Shown: piece after piece, positions 15,377 through 28,031 of the stretch
Position numbering within the stretch: the stretch's first letter is position 1
Layout of the letters: each line of letters begins with the position of its first letter
IMG/VR virus record: IMGVR_UViG_3300030328_001039
Coordinates: 1-64,000 of that record
Length of the DNA stretch: 64,000 nucleotides
Source of the DNA: a virus
Strand: one strand, 5' to 3'
The notes under the pieces: generated by a model
Databases searched by the model: none
The model's input: only the letters and a program-made list of their open reading frames with translations
Told to the model about the DNA's origin: nothing
Position numbers and translations under genes: made by a program

Positions 15377-16378
15377 ATGGCGGGATTTGGTAAGACGAAA
15401 GAAGCAAACAATGCAGAAAAAGAAGAGAAGGTACTGGAGGAAACTCCAGCGGTCAAGCGTACTGACGCTGACCCCTTTGCCTCTCTACGCAATGAACTAG
15501 AGATGATGGACAATACACCACAGACTCATATCTTCATGGGTATCGCAGGGCATGACAACACTGGTAAGACGGCTATCGTAACTGATGCCTTTACTAAGTG
15601 GTTGGCTGCTCCTGAGAGAACAGAACAGGAGAAAGAAATGCAACTGTGGATTATGGACTTTGAAGGTGGGGGTGCTGCTAACAAGTCAGCATTCCATCGT
15701 GACAATGACAACATCAAGATTTTTGAGCCGTGGGTTATGATGAAGAATGACAGCACTGCTTACAACTATCCTGAGACACATCTTCGTGTCATGGGTATCA
15801 CTCAGTTCGCTAATGATATTGCTCAGAAGCAGCGTGACCCCGAATACACTGGCCCTCGTCTGTGGGGATTCCATGTTACTGGGGTAGACCTTTGGGATAG
15901 CGTATGTGTAAACTGTATGCGTATCGTAGATTTGAACATCGCTAAGGATGGTATTGAGGCTGCTGACTGGAATAAGAAGGTAGGCCACCAGTGGGATTGG
16001 GCTATTCGTAAGACTCGGTTTCACCAACTCACTGGGCTATGCCGTGGCTTGGTAAAGTCAGGAGTGCGTGTCTTTTGGGAGACTCACCTACGATTGACTA
16101 ACTACTCTTGGGGTAAGAATGAGGACACTGCTGCTACATGGCGACCTGACTGGGAGAAGGCAAGTAACAACTTTGTCTATCAGATACTAATTTGTGAGCG
16201 TCAAGATACTCTTGACGAGGACACTGGTGATGTAGTCAAGTCCGAATACACTATTCGATTTGACAAGAGCAAAACCAATGCACGACTACAAGGACAGAAG
16301 AGGACTACACTCGTTACTGAGGCAGGTAAAGAACCACAGTGGTTCGGACTACCTGAACTCTATGACGGTACACTTTGA
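15377..16378 (+). CDS. Sak4/AAA_24-like RecA-fold ATPase (single-strand annealing/recombination)
   Basis: Walker A AGHDNTGKT, MDFEGG; adjacent to SSB-like gene. Confidence 0.7.
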   Translation: MAGFGKTKEANNAEKEEKVLEETPAVKRTDADPFASLRNELEMMDNTPQTHIFMGIAGHDNTGKTAIVTDAFTKWLAAPERTEQEKEMQLWIMDFEGGGAANKSAFHRDNDNIKIFEPWVMMKNDSTAYNYPETHLRVMGITQFANDIAQKQRDPEYTGPRLWGFHVTGVDLWDSVCVNCMRIVDLNIAKDGIEAADWNKKVGHQWDWAIRKTRFHQLTGLCRGLVKSGVRVFWETHLRLTNYSWGKNEDTAATWRPDWEKASNNFVYQILICERQDTLDEDTGDVVKSEYTIRFDKSKTNARLQGQKRTTLVTEAGKEPQWFGLPELYDGTL

Positions 16379-16386
16379 TATTCTCA

Positions 16387-16526
16387 TGGGGGTTTTGGCA
16401 GACTAAAAACGGTAAAGGTGTTTGACGCAGTAACAGGTCTTTTCCCAACTAAATAGTTGTAGACAGTTACTTTATGCCAATGGGGGCTTTCCTTTCCCCT
16501 CATACCGTTCCCCCACCTAGAGGTGA
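16387..16526 (+). ncRNA. candidate structured cis-regulatory RNA upstream of the clamp gene
   Basis: Eight nested complementary segments found by eye in the only long intergenic gap of the RFC-to-XPF run. Confidence 0.5.
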
Positions 16527-16530
16527 TAAC

Positions 16531-17286
16531 ATGACTAAGATACAGATTGACAGAAAACAGTTGTTGGATTTCCTATCCGACTTTGGTAAAAACGCTGAGG
16601 ACTTGCGTATCAAGTTCGCTGATGGTAAGATGACAGCCTCGGTAGCATTCATTTCTCACTACTTGTCTAAGACGAGAAAGGTAGAGGGTTCTATACTAGA
16701 GGCAGGTACACTAGATATTACTGAACTTGTCAAGGTTCGACAGTTCATCAAGGCTGCAAAGAATGACTTAGTGACCATCAGGCAAACAGGTTCAGCAAAG
16801 ACACTGAACATTACTTGTGGTTCGTCTAAGATTTCTATGCCTACATCTTCTACGATTGTCAGTGCTGCTAAGGCTGTGTTGTTTCAGAAGTTGATTGATG
16901 AGGCAGTCGAATCTAAGTGGACTAAGTTTCATTCATGCGACCTGAATACATCAGGAGTCATCACATTGGATGAGTTGTCTACTGTGTCAAAGATGAGAGG
17001 TATTCTCAACAGCACTCCTATCTTCAAGATTACAGCAAACCCAAGTGAGAATGAGTTTCTCATATCATCAGGTAAGCGACATGAAACGAAGTTGTTCACT
17101 ACGCTTGAGTTGCGTGATTCTACTGGCCCAGTTACAGGCAGCGTGAGTTCTACATTTGGTTCATGGTTCATGGATAACATAGCACTGCTTGGCAAAGGAG
17201 AGGCTACTATACACATGGGTGAGACGACTATCATAGCACTTGAGAAGGATGATGATTTACTGGTGATTATAGACCAAAGGGTGTGA
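16531..17286 (+). CDS. putative PCNA-like DNA polymerase sliding clamp (divergent)
   Basis: About 251 aa with two similar helix/strand halves, ends LLVIIDQRV; located between the RFC operon and polB; AGGTGA SD. Confidence 0.6.
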   Translation: MTKIQIDRKQLLDFLSDFGKNAEDLRIKFADGKMTASVAFISHYLSKTRKVEGSILEAGTLDITELVKVRQFIKAAKNDLVTIRQTGSAKTLNITCGSSKISMPTSSTIVSAAKAVLFQKLIDEAVESKWTKFHSCDLNTSGVITLDELSTVSKMRGILNSTPIFKITANPSENEFLISSGKRHETKLFTTLELRDSTGPVTGSVSSTFGSWFMDNIALLGKGEATIHMGETTIIALEKDDDLLVIIDQRV

Positions 17287-17290
17287 TTGA

Positions 17291-17437
17291 ATGAACACAG
17301 CAGAATTGATGGAATTGATAGAAGAAAGAGATGTAACAGCAGCAAGAGTTTGGAAACTAGAAAATGAACTATCTATTGTTGTTAAAAGGCTAAATGAATT
17401 AAATAAACAGATTAAAGATGGTAATGTGATAGAATGA
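17291..17437 (+). CDS. 48-aa coiled-coil micro-protein
   Basis: Read manually (MNTAELMELIEERD...NVIE); ATGA overlap with polB start. Confidence 0.5.
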   Translation: MNTAELMELIEERDVTAARVWKLENELSIVVKRLNELNKQIKDGNVIE

Positions 17438-19848
17438 TTATTGACTGGTATTACCCTGCTGAGTCTGACAACTTTGGAGAGCCTAATCTATACTTGCGTA
17501 CTCGTGACAAGCATGGTACGCTGCAAGAAGAGCACATATGGCCTGAAGATGATAGGTATGTAAAGCCGCATTGTTGGATTCCAGTAGATACTCCTGAGTG
17601 GAAACTCAATCGTATGATGGGTAGATACCCCAGTGCTAAGATTCATCGAGACATTCGTACCAAAGGTATTGACAAGAAACCACTGATGAAAGTCGAGGTA
17701 GACAAACCCACAGACCTTTGGGATATTAAGGATGAAATGCCTACTTATGAAGCAGACTTGAATTATCTCGACCAAGTGTTACTGCAACTATATCCTGACA
17801 AACTACCTGAGTTCAAGCCTCGTGTATGGTACTTTGATTTGGAGTGGGACACAAAGGAGGACTTCACATCAGTTATGGCTGTAGTGGATAGCGACCTTGA
17901 CACTCCTGTTGTATTCGCATGGGCTGATTGGGAGAAAACTAACTGCCCTCAGCCTACACGCTCGACCCCAAGTGGCCCGATAGATAAAGAAGTCCGAGGT
18001 CAAAAATACACTCTCTTCAATCACTCTTCTGAAGCAGAAATGCACGAGAGTTTCATCAAGTTCTTACACAAGCGTGACCCCGATATTCTCGTAGCCCATG
18101 CTATCATGTGGGCTGACTTACCACACCTTATGCGTAGACTCAAAGACCCTGACCAACTTTCACCACTTGGTCAAGTGATTAGACCATTCAAGGGTAGAGA
18201 CGGTTACAAAGATACTCAACAGCCTATCAAGGGTAGAATATGTTTTGACTCAGCAGCACCTTGGAAATCAGGTAGTGGCTTTGAATCCTTATGGCAGAAG
18301 TCAGGTAGAGGACAATTACCTAATCGTAAGTTGAATACCATAGCAGAGCGACTTGAACTTGGTAGCAAACTGACTGAGGAAATTGAGGGTATGACTGTTC
18401 ACAATGGTTGGTACGAATACTGGAGTGACTTCGTAGATTACTGTCTCCTTGACACTACGCTACTGCGTGACATTGACAAGAAACTCAATGCCATTGATTT
18501 CTTCGTAGCAGTACAACAGTTATGTGGTGTATCATTTGCCAGCACACACAAGGTCACTCGATACTTTAGAGGTCTTGTTGGTAGGAGGACTAAAATGAAA
18601 GCCAAGAGTGCTATCAATAATAGGCGTGAAGCATTGACTGCTGCACACATACCTGACCCTATTCCCGGTAGACATGAGGGTGTAGCCATTGTAGACTATG
18701 CCTCACTATATCCAAACATCATTCTCAGTGACAATTTATGTTACACTACTAAGCGTGACCATCCGACTACCACTACCAAGACATTGGATAATGGTTCACA
18801 CTGGTGTCAGAAAGAGAAGGGTCTGCTACCTTCTATTGTTGAAGAAATGCTCGCTCTTCGTGCTGAATACAAAAGGCTCATGCGTGACGCTATAGACCCT
18901 GATGAGAAGTTGGGGTACGACATGATGCAGACCGCAGCAAAAGTCCTTGTCAATGCCCTATACGGTATGACGGGAATGAAGTCTGTTCAAGGTATGTGGA
19001 TTGATAATGATATAGCAGCCGCTATCACATACAGAGGGCGTGAGGCTATCCAACATTTGCTAAAGGAGAGTGAAGAGCAGGGCTACAAGTCACTGTATGG
19101 TCATACTGATTCAGCGTTTATTCAAGTTCCATTCGATGATGCTGAGCCACTCGCTAAGCATCTTACTCAAACTGCGAAGGATAAGTTGAACTTACCAACA
19201 ATGGAGGTTGAACTTGAAGCATACTTTGACTACTGGATTACTGCTCCAGTGAAAAACCGTTACTTCGGTATCAAGGTGTGGCCTGAAAAGAGCAAGGGTG
19301 AAATGAAGATTAGTGGTTATGAAATCAAAGCCTCTAGTTCTTCACGGATTACCAAACGCATTCAAGAAGTGGCTATGCAAATGATAGGCACTGGTAAAGA
19401 CGAAGAGGCTGTGACTGATGTACTGAGAGAAGTAAGCCTCCAAGTTAGAAACGGTGAAATACCAATTGAAGATGTGGCTTGCTCTTCTCGATTGACTATG
19501 GCTTTCAAAGATTACAAGAGCCTACCAGCACCAGCAAAGGCTGCTATGTATTACAATGAACATGTCGCTACTAATGCCGATGAAAGATGGGCTAAGGGTG
19601 ACAGTGTATCATGGATTTATGTCAAGGGCTTCAACAATGATGTACCTGACTATTACACTCTCAACGGGGAGAAGAAGAAGGTAGACTTCGTTGCTTTCCG
19701 TGATAAGTCTGAGTTGAAGAACTACACCATAGACTGGGATAAAGTGCTCAGTGTAATGGTTAAGTCTAAACTCATGCGAATATACGAGAGCCTTGACTGG
19801 GAACTAGATGCTGCCGCTGGAGCGACTATGCCTAAGTCATATTTTTAA
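17434..19848 (+). CDS. polB: family B DNA polymerase
   Basis: ExoI FDLEW, ExoIII YCLLD, motif A DYASLYPNII, motif B KVLVNALYG, motif C YGHTDS, KNRY. Confidence 0.97.
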   Translation: MIIDWYYPAESDNFGEPNLYLRTRDKHGTLQEEHIWPEDDRYVKPHCWIPVDTPEWKLNRMMGRYPSAKIHRDIRTKGIDKKPLMKVEVDKPTDLWDIKDEMPTYEADLNYLDQVLLQLYPDKLPEFKPRVWYFDLEWDTKEDFTSVMAVVDSDLDTPVVFAWADWEKTNCPQPTRSTPSGPIDKEVRGQKYTLFNHSSEAEMHESFIKFLHKRDPDILVAHAIMWADLPHLMRRLKDPDQLSPLGQVIRPFKGRDGYKDTQQPIKGRICFDSAAPWKSGSGFESLWQKSGRGQLPNRKLNTIAERLELGSKLTEEIEGMTVHNGWYEYWSDFVDYCLLDTTLLRDIDKKLNAIDFFVAVQQLCGVSFASTHKVTRYFRGLVGRRTKMKAKSAINNRREALTAAHIPDPIPGRHEGVAIVDYASLYPNIILSDNLCYTTKRDHPTTTTKTLDNGSHWCQKEKGLLPSIVEEMLALRAEYKRLMRDAIDPDEKLGYDMMQTAAKVLVNALYGMTGMKSVQGMWIDNDIAAAITYRGREAIQHLLKESEEQGYKSLYGHTDSAFIQVPFDDAEPLAKHLTQTAKDKLNLPTMEVELEAYFDYWITAPVKNRYFGIKVWPEKSKGEMKISGYEIKASSSSRITKRIQEVAMQMIGTGKDEEAVTDVLREVSLQVRNGEIPIEDVACSSRLTMAFKDYKSLPAPAKAAMYYNEHVATNADERWAKGDSVSWIYVKGFNNDVPDYYTLNGEKKKVDFVAFRDKSELKNYTIDWDKVLSVMVKSKLMRIYESLDWELDAAAGATMPKSYF

Positions 19849-22952: not shown

Positions 22953-23181
22953 ACAACATAGAATGCACGCTAATCTCTGCTTTAATTGCGGTAATGTTTT
23001 AGGTAGAACTAATAACAACAAAAGAATGATGATGTTGTGTTCAACATGTAATAAGAATGTAGACTTACTACCCGAAGAATACCGTTGTAAAGGTGAGACA
23101 AGAAAAGGTAACAGATGTAGAACAGCGGTCTATGATGGCACAGGTTATTGTCGAAATCATAAGCATCAGGAGGAGGAGTAA
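22941..23181 (+). CDS. small double zinc-finger protein
   Basis: CFNC...CSTC and RCKGETRKGNRC...YCRNH; start approximate (ORF track gives 22933). Confidence 0.6.
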
Positions 23182-23891
23182 TGCCTAAGCCTGATTTAAT
23201 CATAGACTCTAATGAAAGGGGTAGCCTTTGTGAATCAATAGAGCGTAGGGCTAAGAAAGAAGGTTTGAATGTCATTAGACAACCATTAGTAGTGGGTGAT
23301 TACTTACTAGGTGCTGCTTGTGTAGAAGCAAAGAGTGTCACCGACTTGTTTCAATCGAGTCACAGCGGTCACCTATGGCGACAGTTAGACAACATGGATG
23401 CCAACTACGAGCGATTCTTTTTAGTCATACATGGTTCGATTGCCAAGTATGTCGCATTCGCTAAGAAGCAAGGCAGGTTCTTGACACACAGTAGAGTGCA
23501 GAATGAACTCACTGGTACTATCGCTCGTATCATGGCTGATTTTGAATGTCAGGTATTCTTCACTCCAAACATCAGCGAGGCTGCTATGTTCGTCACTAAA
23601 CTACACAATAAGTTACACAAGCCAGCGAGTAAGCATGGTGCTCATGCTATTCGTAGAGTATCTACAAACGATGTACGGGTAGACATGTTGCTAACAATTC
23701 CGGGTGTCGGTGCTGAGTTAGCAGAGCGTCTACTAGAGAAATGTGGTAACCTAGAAGAGATGTGTTTCCCTGAATCCCTGAAGCAAGTTAAGGGGCTGGG
23801 TGATAAGAAAAGACAACTCATTGTTGAGGTTTTGACCAGCGAATCACCAGTCCACATACAACGAAGTGTTAGGCGCAAGAGGGGTATTTAA
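23181..23891 (+). CDS. XPF/ERCC4 (Hef-like) structure-specific endonuclease with HhH motifs
   Basis: IDSNE, GDY, VEAKS.TDL; tandem HhH IPGVG and VKGLG. Confidence 0.88.
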   Translation: MPKPDLIIDSNERGSLCESIERRAKKEGLNVIRQPLVVGDYLLGAACVEAKSVTDLFQSSHSGHLWRQLDNMDANYERFFLVIHGSIAKYVAFAKKQGRFLTHSRVQNELTGTIARIMADFECQVFFTPNISEAAMFVTKLHNKLHKPASKHGAHAIRRVSTNDVRVDMLLTIPGVGAELAERLLEKCGNLEEMCFPESLKQVKGLGDKKRQLIVEVLTSESPVHIQRSVRRKRGI

Positions 23892-25948: not shown

Positions 25949-26569
25949 ATGAGTGACATAATGGCATTGGATATTGAGACTGGTAACTACTCTTGGGAAA
26001 TAGGCGGTTGGGATAAACATAGCCTGTTTGAGCCTACAGTTGTAGCAACATGGGATGGTATAGAGGGTAATGTGTTTGCTAAGCAGCATATAGAAATGGC
26101 AAATGCTACTGTTCATGACTTACACCCTCGTACTCTTGGTGACCATTTGCAGAAACACATTGACGGTGGTGGTAAGATACTGGGTCACAATATTCGTGGT
26201 TTCGATTTGCCAGTTCTAAACGCTGCACTGGACTGCTGGACTGCTGGTGATTTGATGAGCAAAAGTGAAAGTATCATTGACACCAAGATGCTAGTTGATA
26301 AAGCAGCATTGAGCGTGGGTAAAGTTCACACCACACTTGACACTCTTGTACGCACTACTCTTGATTTGTCAAAGAGTATGCAGAGTAGCGATGCGCCATT
26401 AGCATGGCGTGAAGGTAAGTATCTTGAGGTAGCCGACTACTGCCTGAAAGATTGTCAATTGACTTACGACCTATACAAGTATGGTTGTGACAATGGCATT
26501 GTAAAGAGTCGTAGTATGGCTGACGGCTCTATAGTTGAAATTGAGGTTGATTGGAATGACGGAGAATAA
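25949..26569 (+). CDS. DEDD/RNase H-like 3'-5' exonuclease (YprB/RNase_H_2-like)
   Basis: ALDIET, GHNIRGFDL, YCLKD. Confidence 0.85.
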   Translation: MSDIMALDIETGNYSWEIGGWDKHSLFEPTVVATWDGIEGNVFAKQHIEMANATVHDLHPRTLGDHLQKHIDGGGKILGHNIRGFDLPVLNAALDCWTAGDLMSKSESIIDTKMLVDKAALSVGKVHTTLDTLVRTTLDLSKSMQSSDAPLAWREGKYLEVADYCLKDCQLTYDLYKYGCDNGIVKSRSMADGSIVEIEVDWNDGE

Positions 26570-28031
26570 TACAACACAAAGGCTAAACATAGAAGCAGTA
26601 AAGCGTATCGCTGAAACTGTAAGAACGACACTTGGGCCACTAGGCATGGACAAGATGATGGTAGACGGTGGTGGTAATGTTATCGTAACTAACGATGGTG
26701 CTACTATCCTACGAGAACTTGACACTGCTCACCCTGCTGCTAAGATGGTAGTAGAGGTATCTAAGATGCAAGAGGCAAATGCATACGATGGTACTACTAG
26801 CACAGTTGTACTAGCGAGTTCAATGCTCGCCAATTCAGAGAACTTATTCATTAAAGGACTACACCCTAATGTGGTTATCAAAGGCTATGCAGCAGCACGA
26901 AATATGGCTATTAAATGTCTTGATGGTATGCCTAATGCTGAGGGAGACTTACAGAAGATAGCAAAGACTGCAATCACTGGTAAATCCCTTGAAACATCAG
27001 AGGATAGAGTCGCTGACTTGTGTGTAGAAACAATAGAAGCAGTTGGAGACGCTCGTGAGGTAAGGACACTCGCTGCTCCCGGTGGCTCTTTGGCTGACTC
27101 TTACCTGTACCGTGGTGTAGTTCTCAATAAGGACTTCATTGGTGGCGGCGATGAGTTCAACAACTGGGCAAACGAAGATGGTGTAGAAGTATTACTACTC
27201 AATGGTGGGCTTACAGAGGGCAAGGATAGCACAAATGTATCTGTTCAAGTATCTGATGCTAACTCTTACAATCAAGTACAAGCGATGGGGCGTGACAAAT
27301 TACTTGCTGCTTCTAAGGCAGTGGTAAGCAGTGGTGCTAATGTGGTTCTATGCCGTGACGCAATTCACGATACCGCCATAGCATATCTACGCAAGCAAGG
27401 TATATCTGTAGTACAGAGAGTACCTGAGAGTACAATGCGTAGACTGTCAAATGAATTAGGAACACCCACGCATATGTTCCCTGACGCTACATCTACAACT
27501 GGTGCTGCTTTTATTTCTCGTGAGTCATACAACGATGTACCCTATCTATTCTTACACGCACAAAACAAAGAGGCTACGCTAGTATTGTTTGGTGCTACTC
27601 AATCTACTCTTGATGAGATTCAGCGTGGATTTGATGACGCTCTAGGGGTTGTATCATTGATTAAGAATGGTGATTCTATGCGCTATGGTGGTGGTTCTAC
27701 TTATCTTGCTATTGCTATGCACTTGCGTGCAAATGCTAGTGAAGTAGGTGGTCGTGCTCAAATGGCAATAGAAGCCTTTGCAGACGCACTTGAAGCAATC
27801 CCTGCTACCATCGCTGAAAATGCTGGTTATGATTCGCTTGATACTGTCTTAGCGATGAGACATGCTTTACCTGAGCCTTATGGCCCTGATGTGGAGAATG
27901 GTGGGATTAAACAAATGAAGGGAGTATTAGAACCAACATCGCTTATTCGTAGTGCCATCAATGGTGCCACTGAAGTTGCTAGTGCTATTCTACGCATTGA
28001 TGATGTAATCGGGCGTAGAGGTGCTGAGTGA
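26556..28031 (+). CDS. ths: group II chaperonin (thermosome subunit)
   Basis: RTTLGPLGMDKM, TNDGATIL, DGTTS, AFADALE.IP..IAENAG, ILRIDD. Confidence 0.95.
   Translation: MTENNTTQRLNIEAVKRIAETVRTTLGPLGMDKMMVDGGGNVIVTNDGATILRELDTAHPAAKMVVEVSKMQEANAYDGTTSTVVLASSMLANSENLFIKGLHPNVVIKGYAAARNMAIKCLDGMPNAEGDLQKIAKTAITGKSLETSEDRVADLCVETIEAVGDAREVRTLAAPGGSLADSYLYRGVVLNKDFIGGGDEFNNWANEDGVEVLLLNGGLTEGKDSTNVSVQVSDANSYNQVQAMGRDKLLAASKAVVSSGANVVLCRDAIHDTAIAYLRKQGISVVQRVPESTMRRLSNELGTPTHMFPDATSTTGAAFISRESYNDVPYLFLHAQNKEATLVLFGATQSTLDEIQRGFDDALGVVSLIKNGDSMRYGGGSTYLAIAMHLRANASEVGGRAQMAIEAFADALEAIPATIAENAGYDSLDTVLAMRHALPEPYGPDVENGGIKQMKGVLEPTSLIRSAINGATEVASAILRIDDVIGRRGAE

What the first reader, a model, noticed from the sequence alone, without database searches (positions are those of the whole stretch)
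16387..16530. Multi-helix structured RNA with an alternative RBS-sequestering hairpin upstream of the clamp-PolB genes
In an operon where genes otherwise overlap or abut, a 152-nt gap folds by eye into nested helices: TGGGGG 16387-92 with CCCCCA 16510-15; TTTTGG 16393-98 with CTAAAA 16403-08; AACGGTA 16408-14 with TACCGTT 16503-09; GGTGT 16417-21 with ATGCC 16474-78; AGTAAC 16429-34 with GTTACT 16466-71; GTCT 16437-40 with AGAC 16461-64; CAACT-AAAT-AGTTG 16446-59; and TGGGGG 16481-86 with CCCTCA 16497-502. A competing hairpin CACC-TAGA-GGTG (16514-25) overlaps the outer helix and would mask the GGTGA Shine-Dalgarno of the clamp gene. Inference: an undescribed cis-regulatory RNA (switch, processing site or autoregulatory operator) or a small ncRNA.
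Basis: partly seen in the sequence, partly recalled or inferred. Interest (0 to 1): 0.7.

Follow-up and report, generated by a model that had tools for sequence, protein, structure and literature searches.

The report
Knotted RNA in archaeal virus operon
A 130-base gap between two DNA-replication genes of an abundant ocean virus of archaea holds a real, conserved folded RNA with a pseudoknot that matches no known RNA family. Its job is unproven, but it most likely sets how much of the downstream replication proteins is made.

Summary
The gap 16379-16530 holds a genuine structured RNA on the + strand, at 16387-16515. In 47 distinct homologues from related uncultured marine viruses, three of them are kept by many compensatory changes: P1, P2 and P4. 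The long middle hairpin (P3) varies between clades. That pseudoknot covaries strongly (0 of 20,000 permutations reach the observed value). Folding energy alone is not significant (z -0.53).

The RNA matches no Rfam family and no tRNA. It is single-copy and always lies just after the stop codon of a conserved P-loop ATPase gene and 10-33 nt before the next start codon. Its presence or absence needs only one change on the ATPase tree, and no sampled carrier has lost it. Relatives without it have the ATPase stop abutting the PCNA start.

The virus looks like a magrovirus (a virus of Marine Group II archaea). The downstream gene has a PCNA fold.

The proposed RBS-masking hairpin is weak, barely competes with P1 and is not conserved. 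The best reading is a self-contained intercistronic RNA module acting in cis on the PCNA/PolB block. The mechanism is inferred, not shown. The scan has not noted this RNA before on other DNA.

The parts
15377..16378 (+). Upstream gene: a 333-aa, very conserved P-loop NTPase. It is probably the RecA/Sak4-like ('RadA-like') ATPase of the magrovirus replication module. Its TGA stop lies 8 nt before the RNA.
   Evidence: ORF list. There is no Pfam or PHROG hit. The Walker-A motif is seen in alignment A3. The nearest Atlas clusters carry PF13479 AAA_24 in 13-49% of members, which is a lead only. The magrovirus gene set is taken from PMC5434244. The AF2 model was poor (pLDDT 56).
16379..16386 (+). 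C/A-rich, G-free spacer between the stop codon and P1. It is 6-16 nt long in relatives.
   Evidence: Parsed homologues.
16387..16392 (+). P1 5' strand. It pairs with 16510-16515 and closes the whole domain.
   Evidence: Compensatory variants occur in distant clades: a G-to-A change matched by C-to-U, and wholly different 7-10 bp helices. Four of 6 pairs show double changes.
16395..16400 (+). Pseudoknot (PK) 5' strand. It pairs with 16475-16480 in 6 Watson-Crick pairs and crosses P2.
   Evidence: There are 31 distinct PK helices. Observed complementarity is 5.10 against 3.90 for cross-paired sequences, 0/20000 permutations. The segment just 5' of P4 is the strictly best partner in 29 of 34 sequences, Wilcoxon p 8e-7.
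16401..16407 (+). A-rich linker between the PK 5' strand and P2. It is conserved as an A-rich sequence.
   Evidence: Alignments A4 and A5.
16408..16414 (+). P2 5' strand. It pairs with 16503-16509 and stacks on P1 through an unbroken 3' strand.
   Evidence: All 7 pairs show double compensatory changes, and 25 distinct helices are seen. RNAalifold recovers it independently.
16415..16474 (+). Junction J2/3 (16415-16428, with a U-rich motif) followed by the variable P3 hairpin. The P3 pairings are 16429-34/16466-71, 16437-40/16461-64 and 16446-50/16455-59.
   Evidence: The helices are read in the window. The region is 15-85 nt long and has no hairpin in some relatives. It shows no conserved pairing with the pre-P4 segment.
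16475..16480 (+). Pseudoknot 3' strand, immediately 5' of P4.
16481..16502 (+). P4 hairpin: stem 16481-86/16497-502 and a pyrimidine-rich loop 16487-96.
   Evidence: A stem of at least 5 bp at this position occurs in 95% of 38 unique sequences against 37% of shuffles, with 26 distinct helices. Its G-U pairs would be A-C mismatches on the other strand.
16503..16515 (+). P2 3' strand (16503-09), continuous with the P1 3' strand (16510-15).
16516..16530 (+). Tail carrying the Shine-Dalgarno (16520-16526). The weak hairpin 16514-17/16522-25 is possible here.
   Evidence: Sequence and pairing probabilities.
16531..17286 (+). PCNA-type sliding clamp gene, 251 aa. The true start is ATG 16531, not the ATG at 16474.
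   Evidence: AF2 pLDDT is 91.6. The top Foldseek hits are archaeal PCNA, E about 3e-12. Relative L003 has an in-frame TGA in the supposed N-terminal extension.
17434..19848 (+). Family B DNA polymerase. It lies in the same gene row, after a 48-codon ORF at 17291-17437.
   Evidence: Pfam DNA_pol_B, E 1.4e-46.

Best explanation
The gap encodes a self-contained RNA domain of about 129 nt (16387-16515) that is transcribed as part of the replication-operon mRNA of a magrovirus-like archaeal virus.

The fold. P1 closes the domain and stacks on P2 through an unbroken 3' strand. The 5'-strand bulge between P1 and P2 reaches across P2 to pair with the segment just before hairpin P4, forming a pseudoknot. 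A peripheral hairpin, P3, is free to vary.

Shown here: the fold, its strand, its single fixed location, and its retention in every sampled descendant of a split that needs only one change.

Inferred: it works in cis as an intercistronic module. Relatives without it have the ATPase stop abutting the PCNA start, which suggests direct stop-start translational coupling. The module replaces that arrangement. A ribosome terminating 8 nt upstream should reach no more than its outermost pairs (inference). The next gene carries its own strong SD 1-22 nt past P1. The compact knotted fold is most plausibly a recognition platform for a viral or host factor, or a barrier to exonucleases. Either role would set the translation or stability of the PCNA/PolB part of the mRNA independently of the ATPase gene.

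It is not a simple two-state RBS-masking switch.
For: Structure:
- Covariation in P1, P2 and P4 on an unfitted alignment and on the covariance-model alignment.
- RNAalifold recovers P2 and part of P1 independently.
- P4 positional test.
- Pseudoknot permutation and positional controls.

Strand:
- All 68 covariance-model hits are on the + strand.
- 73 G-U pairs occur among 744 helix pairs.

Part of the mRNA rather than a separate gene:
- No promoter-like or terminator-like site lies in the gap.
- The 5' and 3' motifs are not repeated in the window.
- The flanking spacers are short.

Fixed role at this junction:
- One copy in the 95.7-kb genome.
- One copy at the same junction in each of five 95-100% complete relatives.
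- None in five relatives that lack it at the junction.

Selection:
- RNA-bearing rows (44) and RNA-lacking rows (30) are separated by one branch of the ATPase tree, SH-aLRT 99, with no later loss.

Replacement of abutting genes:
- In RNA-lacking relatives the stop and the ATG are 1-8 nt apart.

Modularity:
- The downstream gene can be PCNA, a 67-78 aa basic ORF or a 43-aa ORF, and the spacings vary.

Precedent, from established knowledge and not tested here: phage T4 controls replication genes through mRNA operators, namely the gene 32 pseudoknot leader, the gene 43 hairpin operator and RegA sites on genes 44 and 45.
Against: - No expression, end-mapping or binding data exist.
- The variable distance to the SD and the changing downstream gene argue against a mechanism that needs precise contact with the ribosome-binding site. 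They fit a free-standing RNA equally well.
- Few nucleotides are invariant, so no obvious ligand pocket or protein site can be named.
- Folding energy is not significantly better than shuffles.
- The host assignment rests on gene content and on literature, not on a direct link.
Confidence: 0.5

Rival explanations
1. A stable non-coding RNA is cut out of the operon transcript and acts in trans. Possible roles are as a decoy, scaffold or guide in replication, or in host takeover. The flanking genes only provide its transcription.
For: The fold is self-contained and closed by P1. The spacers on both sides vary and are unstructured. The downstream gene differs between relatives. A conserved C-A precedes P1, and in the main clade a conserved N-C-C follows it. 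These could mark processing sites. Earlier notes of this scan describe other orphan pseudoknotted RNAs in marine archaeal viruses. Those notes are unchecked leads.
Against: It has no promoter or terminator of its own. It never moves from this one junction and is never duplicated. The N-C-C tail is missing in the most divergent clades. No transcript data exist.
Confidence: 0.22
2. A metabolite-sensing riboswitch, for example for a nucleotide-related ligand, controls the replisome genes.
For: The architecture is compact and pseudoknotted, with a peripheral variable helix and conserved junction strands (the U-U-G start of the PK, the A-rich linker and a U-rich J2/3), much like many aptamers. It lies directly upstream of a start codon.
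Against: Very few positions are invariant. There is no conserved expression platform, because SD pairing is inconsistent. No Rfam riboswitch matches even at E up to 10. It occurs at one locus of one virus lineage only. From general knowledge, riboswitches are rare in archaea.
Confidence: 0.08
3. It is a two-state switch in which an alternative hairpin (16514-17/16522-25) competes with P1 and masks the Shine-Dalgarno of the clamp gene.
For: The hairpin exists in the window. In the main clade the C-N-C-C after P1 can pair with the G-G-U-G of the SD, with N being A or G. In the window's clade the SD is predicted to be about 60% paired, partly to this tail.
Against: It shares only two positions with P1 (16514, 16515), and it coexists with a four-pair P1 in the MFE fold. 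It has 3-5 pairs, with loops of 4-15 nt in relatives. N is U in several clades, which gives a mismatch. The tail is absent in the divergent clades. The SD is 93-99% open in the clade that uses an A-G-G-A-G SD. Covariation cannot be seen, because the SD is constrained.
Confidence: 0.07
4. An RNA-processing element that separates the upstream and downstream messages. It would be either a self-cleaving ribozyme or a tRNA-like punctuation signal cut by RNase P or tRNase Z.
For: The order PK5'-P2 5'-P3-PK3'-P4-P2 3' is the same strand order as in HDV-like ribozymes. The P1-P2 stack of 13 bp with an N-C-C tail loosely recalls an acceptor-like minihelix.
Against: The HDV hallmarks are absent. The first PK pair is U-A or C-G, not G-U. 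The P3 region varies from 15 to 85 nt instead of a fixed 3-bp P3 with a short loop. Only 0-2 nt lie between P4 and P2', leaving no room for a catalytic J4/2. No ribozyme family matches in Rfam. ARAGORN finds no tRNA-like gene.
Confidence: 0.08
5. It is not an RNA device at all. It would be a DNA-level element (origin, promoter, recombination site) or a neutral remnant of an insertion.
For: Folding energy is no better than shuffles. The element entered the lineage once.
Against: G-U pairs occur on one strand only, and all covariance-model hits are on one strand. Dozens of compensatory changes are seen in four helices, including a pseudoknot. No carrier among 44 distinct lineage members has lost it.
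Confidence: 0.03

Closest known systems
Phage T4 translational operators of replication genes (gene 32 leader pseudoknot, gene 43 hairpin operator, RegA sites on genes 44 and 45)
   Same: A structured element lies in the mRNA of a viral replication-gene cluster, just upstream of a ribosome-binding site. A pseudoknot could act as a nucleation or recognition site. This is an analogy from established knowledge.
   Different: There is no sequence or structural homology. The host is an archaeon. The fold is larger (four helices plus a pseudoknot), is closed on itself, and tolerates variable spacing to the SD. No binding protein is known.
HDV-like self-cleaving ribozymes
   Same: The interleaved strands have the same order: first helix 5', second helix 5', hairpin, first helix 3', hairpin, second helix 3'.
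   Different: The G-U first pair, the fixed 3-bp P3 with its short loop, P1.1 and the J4/2 strand with the catalytic C are all missing. An extra outer helix pairs the would-be leader. There is no Rfam hit.
Orphan structured RNA motifs found by comparative genomics in marine phages and metagenomes (for example manA and wcaG RNAs in Rfam)
   Same: It was discovered through covariation in uncultured marine viruses, it has a complex fold, and its function is unknown.
   Different: It matches none of those families. It lies inside a replication operon of an archaeal virus, not a bacteriophage, and it is single-copy at one fixed junction.
Intercistronic mRNA stabiliser or insulator structures in bacterial operons (REP-type hairpins, 5' stem-loop protectors)
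   Same: It sits between cistrons of one transcript and could give the two halves different stability or translation.
   Different: Those are simple hairpins. This is a conserved pseudoknotted multi-helix domain, which implies a more specific recognition or mechanical role.

Membership tests
Any Rfam 15 family | Covariance-model score at or above the family's gathering threshold | tested here: not met
   There are 0 hits in the whole window. At E up to 10 on 16300-16600 only two chance snoRNA matches appear, 12-13 bits against thresholds of 40-50.
tRNA / tmRNA / tRNA-like element | Cloverleaf with D and T arms, or a tmRNA tag, recognisable by ARAGORN | tested here: not met
   No gene is found in the window. 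P2 closes a multiloop instead of being a T arm.
tRNA / tmRNA / tRNA-like element | 3' N-C-C-A after the acceptor-like stem | tested here: inconclusive
   N-C-C followed by U, G or C is conserved in the main clade. It is absent in the divergent clades represented by L038, L039, L041, L060 and L089.
HDV-like ribozyme | Nested double-pseudoknot strand order | tested here: inconclusive
   The strand order of PK, P2, P3 and P4 agrees, but only one pseudoknot is seen.
HDV-like ribozyme | G-U first pair at the cleavage site, a constant 3-bp P3 with a short L3, P1.1, and J4/2 with a catalytic C | tested here: not met
   The first PK pair is U-A or C-G. The P3 region varies from 15 to 85 nt. Only 0-2 nt lie between P4 and P2'.
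Translational riboswitch or RBS-sequestering switch | SD or start codon taken up in a pairing that is mutually exclusive with a helix of the sensor domain, conserved across members | tested here: not met
   Two P1 positions are shared. The SD is on average 55% unpaired with inconsistent partners, and is fully open in one clade.
Translational riboswitch or RBS-sequestering switch | Ligand-dependent conformational change | not testable with these tools
   This needs in-line probing or SHAPE.
Autogenous protein-binding mRNA operator (T4 gene 32 / gene 43 type) | Specific binding of a protein encoded in the same regulon, and repression of translation | not testable with these tools
   Only the position upstream of the replication genes is shown.
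Transcription terminator (bacterial intrinsic or archaeal oligo-T) | A T-run at the 3' end of the element | tested here: not met
   There is no terminator-like site in the gap and no T-run after P1 in the window. T5-T8 runs occur only inside the P4 loop, in about a third of relatives.
Magrovirus (virus of Marine Group II archaea), as genomic context | Replication module with PolB, sliding clamp, RFC-like clamp loader, RadA-like ATPase and nucleases, plus a thermosome gene in group A (PMC5434244) | tested here: met
   PolB, an AAA clamp-loader-like protein and a PD-(D/E)XK nuclease. PCNA fold. Thermosome-type Cpn60_TCP1 at E 1e-119 and an ERCC4 nuclease. Paper text. MCM, primase and capsid genes were not checked here.

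The most novel reading that the evidence does not exclude
The domain is a sensor or catalyst in its own right. It would be a ligand- or protein-responsive pseudoknotted riboregulator, or a new ribozyme class, that tunes replisome production. That would make it the first complex regulatory RNA described for a virus of archaea.
Probability: 0.2. Interest if true: 0.85.

Novelty: new variant of a known kind. Interest (0 to 1): 0.64.

Why it matters
Magroviruses are among the most abundant archaeal viruses of the surface ocean, and neither they nor their hosts are cultured (PMC5434244). In the library searches made here, no structured regulatory RNA was found described for them.

This motif has about 47 distinct natural sequence variants and clear covariation in four helices, including a pseudoknot. 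It is therefore ready for chemical probing, structure determination and binding screens.

It also marks a point where one viral lineage replaced abutting ATPase and PCNA genes with an RNA device. This gives a concrete handle on how an archaeal virus balances its replisome components. It adds a new family to the short list of complex-fold RNAs connected with archaea.

Tried and rejected
Family and database searches
- Rfam at gathering and at permissive thresholds gave nothing.
- ARAGORN gave nothing.
- blastn of the region and tblastn of the ATPase against 50,697 phage records gave no match.
- Profile searches of the ATPase and PCNA against PDB sequences gave no meaningful hit.
- The AF2 model of the ATPase was too poor to search with (pLDDT 56).

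Expression and host
- No RNA holder was listed among public runs, so no read mapping was done.
- A host-genome search for the motif was not possible.

Structural ideas tested and dropped
- Kissing or long-range pairings were tested between the P1-P2 bulge, J2/3, the P3 region, the P4 loop and the SD tail. None showed signal except bulge with P3 region, which led to the pseudoknot.
- A U.A-U to C+.G-C base-triple reading of one clade's U-to-C change is better explained by PK covariation, C-G replacing U-A.

Functional ideas tested and dropped
- Stop-codon readthrough or frameshift stimulator: the downstream frame is not conserved and the lengths differ by non-multiples of 3.
- Repeated promoter motif: the 5' and 3' motifs are unique in the window.
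- Second copies elsewhere in the genomes: none. A 17-bit hit in an RNA-lacking relative is AT-rich noise with broken pairs.

Full report
**What is in the window**

The gene row from about 11.2 to 23 kb is packed head to tail. The 152-nt gap at 16379-16530 is an exception. It lies between a 333-aa ORF (15377-16378) and a 251-aa ORF whose likely start is ATG 16531, preceded by a strong Shine-Dalgarno at 16520-26.

The minimum-energy fold of the gap contains most of them. Its energy is ordinary, though: -40.6 kcal/mol against -38.6 +/- 3.7 for dinucleotide shuffles, z -0.53. The opposite strand scores about the same. Across 43 homologues the mean z is -1.22, and only 12% fall below -2. Thermodynamics alone therefore neither supports nor refutes the finding.

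**Context**

- The downstream protein has no Pfam or PHROG hit. With a 31-sequence alignment it folds at pLDDT 91.6, and its best structural matches are archaeal PCNAs at E about 3e-12. It is a sliding clamp.
- A family B polymerase follows.
- A clamp-loader-like AAA protein lies upstream, and a PD-(D/E)XK nuclease lies downstream of the polymerase. An ERCC4 nuclease and a thermosome-type chaperonin (E 1e-119) also lie downstream.
- This gene set matches the replication module described for magroviruses, viruses assigned to Marine Group II archaea. In that description thermosome genes mark group A (PMC5434244).
- The upstream 333-aa protein is extremely conserved and has a Walker-A motif. A language-model lookup points to AAA_24 (Sak4/RecA-like) clusters. 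That fits the 'RadA-like ATPase' of that paper, but I could not confirm it.
- The record is a 95.7-kb virus genome estimated at 90% complete.
- Nothing similar is present among 50,697 deposited phage genomes.

**Relatives**

Protein-anchored searches gave:
- 21 viral contigs;
- 80 metagenome contigs;
- one contig binned in a bacterial MAG;
- 27 loci from a further viral scan, 18 on contigs already fetched and nine on new, more distant ones.

In every relative whose ATPase is at least about 68% identical to the window's, a homologous element starts 6-16 nt after the ATPase stop codon. In all more distant relatives the stop and the clamp ATG are 1-8 nt apart or overlap, and there is no element.

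On a tree of the ATPase, the 44 RNA-bearing and 30 RNA-lacking distinct sequences are separated by a single branch (SH-aLRT 99). The tree is unrooted, so this is one gain or one loss. No carrier has lost it since.

**Structure: P1, P2 and P4**

By eye, and then by an anchored parse, each homologue shows the same layout. P1 is followed by a bulge of 11-16 nt, then P2. On the 3' side, P2' runs directly into P1'.

P2 is rebuilt many times, with 25 distinct helices. P1 is a conserved G-run/C-run in the main clade. It carries compensatory changes in one clade and is replaced by unrelated 7-10 bp helices in the most divergent clades.

| Measure | MAFFT alignment of 43 unique sequences, not fitted to any structure | Covariance-model alignment, 47 distinct rows |
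|---|---|---|
| Cells forming standard pairs | 81.6% | 85.6% |
| Same, column shuffles | 68.4% | 69.7% |
| Covariation score | 0.439 | 0.466 |
| Same, shuffles | 0.213 (0/500 reach the observed value) | 0.204 |
| Same, slid partners (control that keeps relatedness) | at most 0.229 | at most 0.193 |
| P2 pairs with changes on both sides | 7 of 7 | 7 of 7 |
| P1 pairs with changes on both sides | 4 of 6 | 4 of 6 |

A covariance model built from the MAFFT alignment finds exactly one hit in each RNA-bearing source, always on the + strand. RNAalifold, predicting on its own, recovers all of P2 and part of P1.

P4 is poorly aligned by these programs, so I tested it by position. A perfect stem of at least 5 bp ending within 2 nt of P2' is present in 95% of 38 unique sequences, against 37% of dinucleotide shuffles of the same inner regions. 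It occurs as 26 distinct helices.

G-U pairs make up 73 of 744 helix pairs on the + strand. On the other strand they would be A-C mismatches. The element is therefore a sense-strand RNA.

**The pseudoknot**

I tested nine pairs of regions for complementarity that co-varies between homologues. One stood out: the P1-P2 bulge against the region before P4.

Inspection showed that the 5' half of the bulge always pairs with the few nucleotides immediately 5' of P4. In the window this is 16395-16400 with 16475-16480, six Watson-Crick pairs. The outer pairs are conserved and the inner ones change freely. Some clades extend the helix to 9-10 bp. In one clade a U-to-C change in the bulge is matched by an A-to-G change before P4.

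- With anchors defined only by P1 and P4, mean complementarity is 5.10 for true pairs and 3.90 for cross-paired sequences (0 of 20,000 permutations; 31 distinct helices).
- Within each sequence, the pre-P4 window is the strictly best partner of the bulge in 29 of 34 cases (Wilcoxon p 8e-7).

Because the bulge lies outside P2 and its partner lies inside, this is a true pseudoknot.
- the small hairpin 16393-98/16403-08, whose sequence is conserved but which shows little independent covariation;
- 16417-21/16474-78, which shows no covariation at all.

The long middle hairpin (16429-16471) is real in the window. However, it carries a deletion or a 23-nt insertion in 98%-identical relatives and is missing in others. 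It is a peripheral variable helix.

**What it is not**

- No Rfam family and no tRNA or tmRNA matches.
- No sigma-70-type promoter-like or intrinsic-terminator-like site lies in the gap, and its end motifs are not repeated in the window. The scan does not cover archaeal promoters.
- It is single-copy in this genome and in five near-complete relatives, always at the same junction.
- Five genomes of the RNA-lacking clade do not carry it elsewhere.
- The strand order PK-P2-P3-PK'-P4-P2' is that of HDV-like ribozymes, but the defining features are absent (see the membership table).
- It is not coding. The in-frame ATG at 16474 that gene callers use gives a 270-aa product. That extension is closed by a stop codon in relative L003, and the element's length varies by non-multiples of three.

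**The RBS-masking idea**

The hairpin 16514-17/16522-25 exists but shares only two positions with P1 (16514 and 16515). In the MFE fold it coexists with a four-pair P1.

Over 43 homologues the SD is on average 55% unpaired, and its partners differ (tail, coding region, or none). In the clade with a different SD it is 93-99% open. The distance from P1 to the SD ranges from 1 to 22 nt, and from P1 to the ATG from 10 to 33 nt.

The gene that follows may be PCNA, a 67-78 aa basic ORF or a 43-aa ORF. The C-C tail that could pair with the SD is missing in the divergent clades. A conserved two-state SD switch is therefore not supported. A modest, clade-specific effect cannot be excluded.

**How it most likely works**

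Shown: a compact, self-closing, pseudoknotted RNA domain has been under long purifying selection. It is embedded in the sense transcript at one fixed junction of the replication operon, in the place where relatives have abutting genes.

Inferred: it acts in cis on the distal part of the message. Two routes are possible. It could be a recognition platform for a viral or host factor, in analogy to the T4 gene 32, gene 43 and RegA operators of replication genes. Or it could be a barrier that gives the PCNA/PolB part a different stability or translation rate from the ATPase gene.

The modularity of the fold and the variable spacings make a processed, trans-acting RNA the main rival. A metabolite riboswitch and a processing element or ribozyme remain possible at lower odds. 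No expression data could be obtained (see Tried and rejected).

**Novelty**

No family in Rfam 15 matches. Full-text searches for magrovirus, and for archaeal virus plus riboswitch, turned up no description of such an element.

Lookups in this scan's notes by sequence found no earlier record of this RNA. Other unchecked notes report different orphan pseudoknotted RNAs in marine archaeal viruses. If those notes hold, such viruses may be a rich source of structured RNAs.

I rate it a new RNA family of a known general kind, a conserved structured element inside a viral operon. It has unusual features: an archaeal-virus host, a pseudoknotted multi-helix fold, and the replacement of abutting genes.

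Noticed in passing
L018:2768-3001, L013:2768-3001, L015:2400-2624, L040:2588-2821, L053:2642-2878, L052:2610-2813: In many RNA-bearing relatives a 67-78 aa basic ORF sits between the RNA and PCNA. It has a CxxC pair, a Q-x-x-L-x-x-x-F stretch that looks like a PIP box, and a conserved basic C-terminus. The window has no homologue (tblastn), and L050 keeps only a 9-codon remnant. It could be a PCNA-binding or nucleic-acid-binding factor linked to the RNA.
   Followed up: partly
L007:2865-2996 (same in L028): A different, unrelated 43-aa ORF occupies the same slot between the RNA and PCNA. The junction seems to be a hot spot for small-gene insertion.
   Followed up: no
window 16474-16530: Gene callers start PCNA at ATG 16474, giving a 270-aa product in the protein database. 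This extension overlaps P4, P2' and P1' of the RNA and is interrupted by an in-frame stop in relative L003. The real start is 16531.
   Followed up: yes
window 16386-16392 and 16480-16486: The same heptamer (A-T followed by five G) forms the 5' strands of both P1 and P4. The two G-runs could therefore swap their C-rich partners. I could not test whether such an alternative fold matters.
   Followed up: no
P4 loops of relatives, e.g. L005, L018, L020, L034, L040, L044, L050, L060: The P4 loop is pyrimidine-rich throughout. In about a third of family members it holds T5-T8 runs, which resemble archaeal oligo-T termination signals placed inside the fold. The window's loop has only T3 runs.
   Followed up: no
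L103 (NZQM01000111.1, 30-kb contig of a MAG labelled Parvibaculum sp.): This contig carries the ATPase (92% identical), the RNA (72.9 bits) and PCNA. It is probably a magrovirus contig misbinned into a bacterial MAG, not evidence for a bacterial host.
   Followed up: partly
window 26535-28031 and 23181-23891: There is a thermosome-type group II chaperonin gene (Pfam Cpn60_TCP1, E 1e-119) and an ERCC4/XPF-type nuclease with HhH motifs. Both are archaeal or eukaryotic in type and support the magrovirus (group A-like) assignment.
   Followed up: partly
tails after P1' in L013, L016, L018, L040, L052, L053, L059: A short Y-G-U-G-U motif follows the C-C tail in relatives whose next gene is the small basic ORF. 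It is absent in the window's clade.
   Followed up: no
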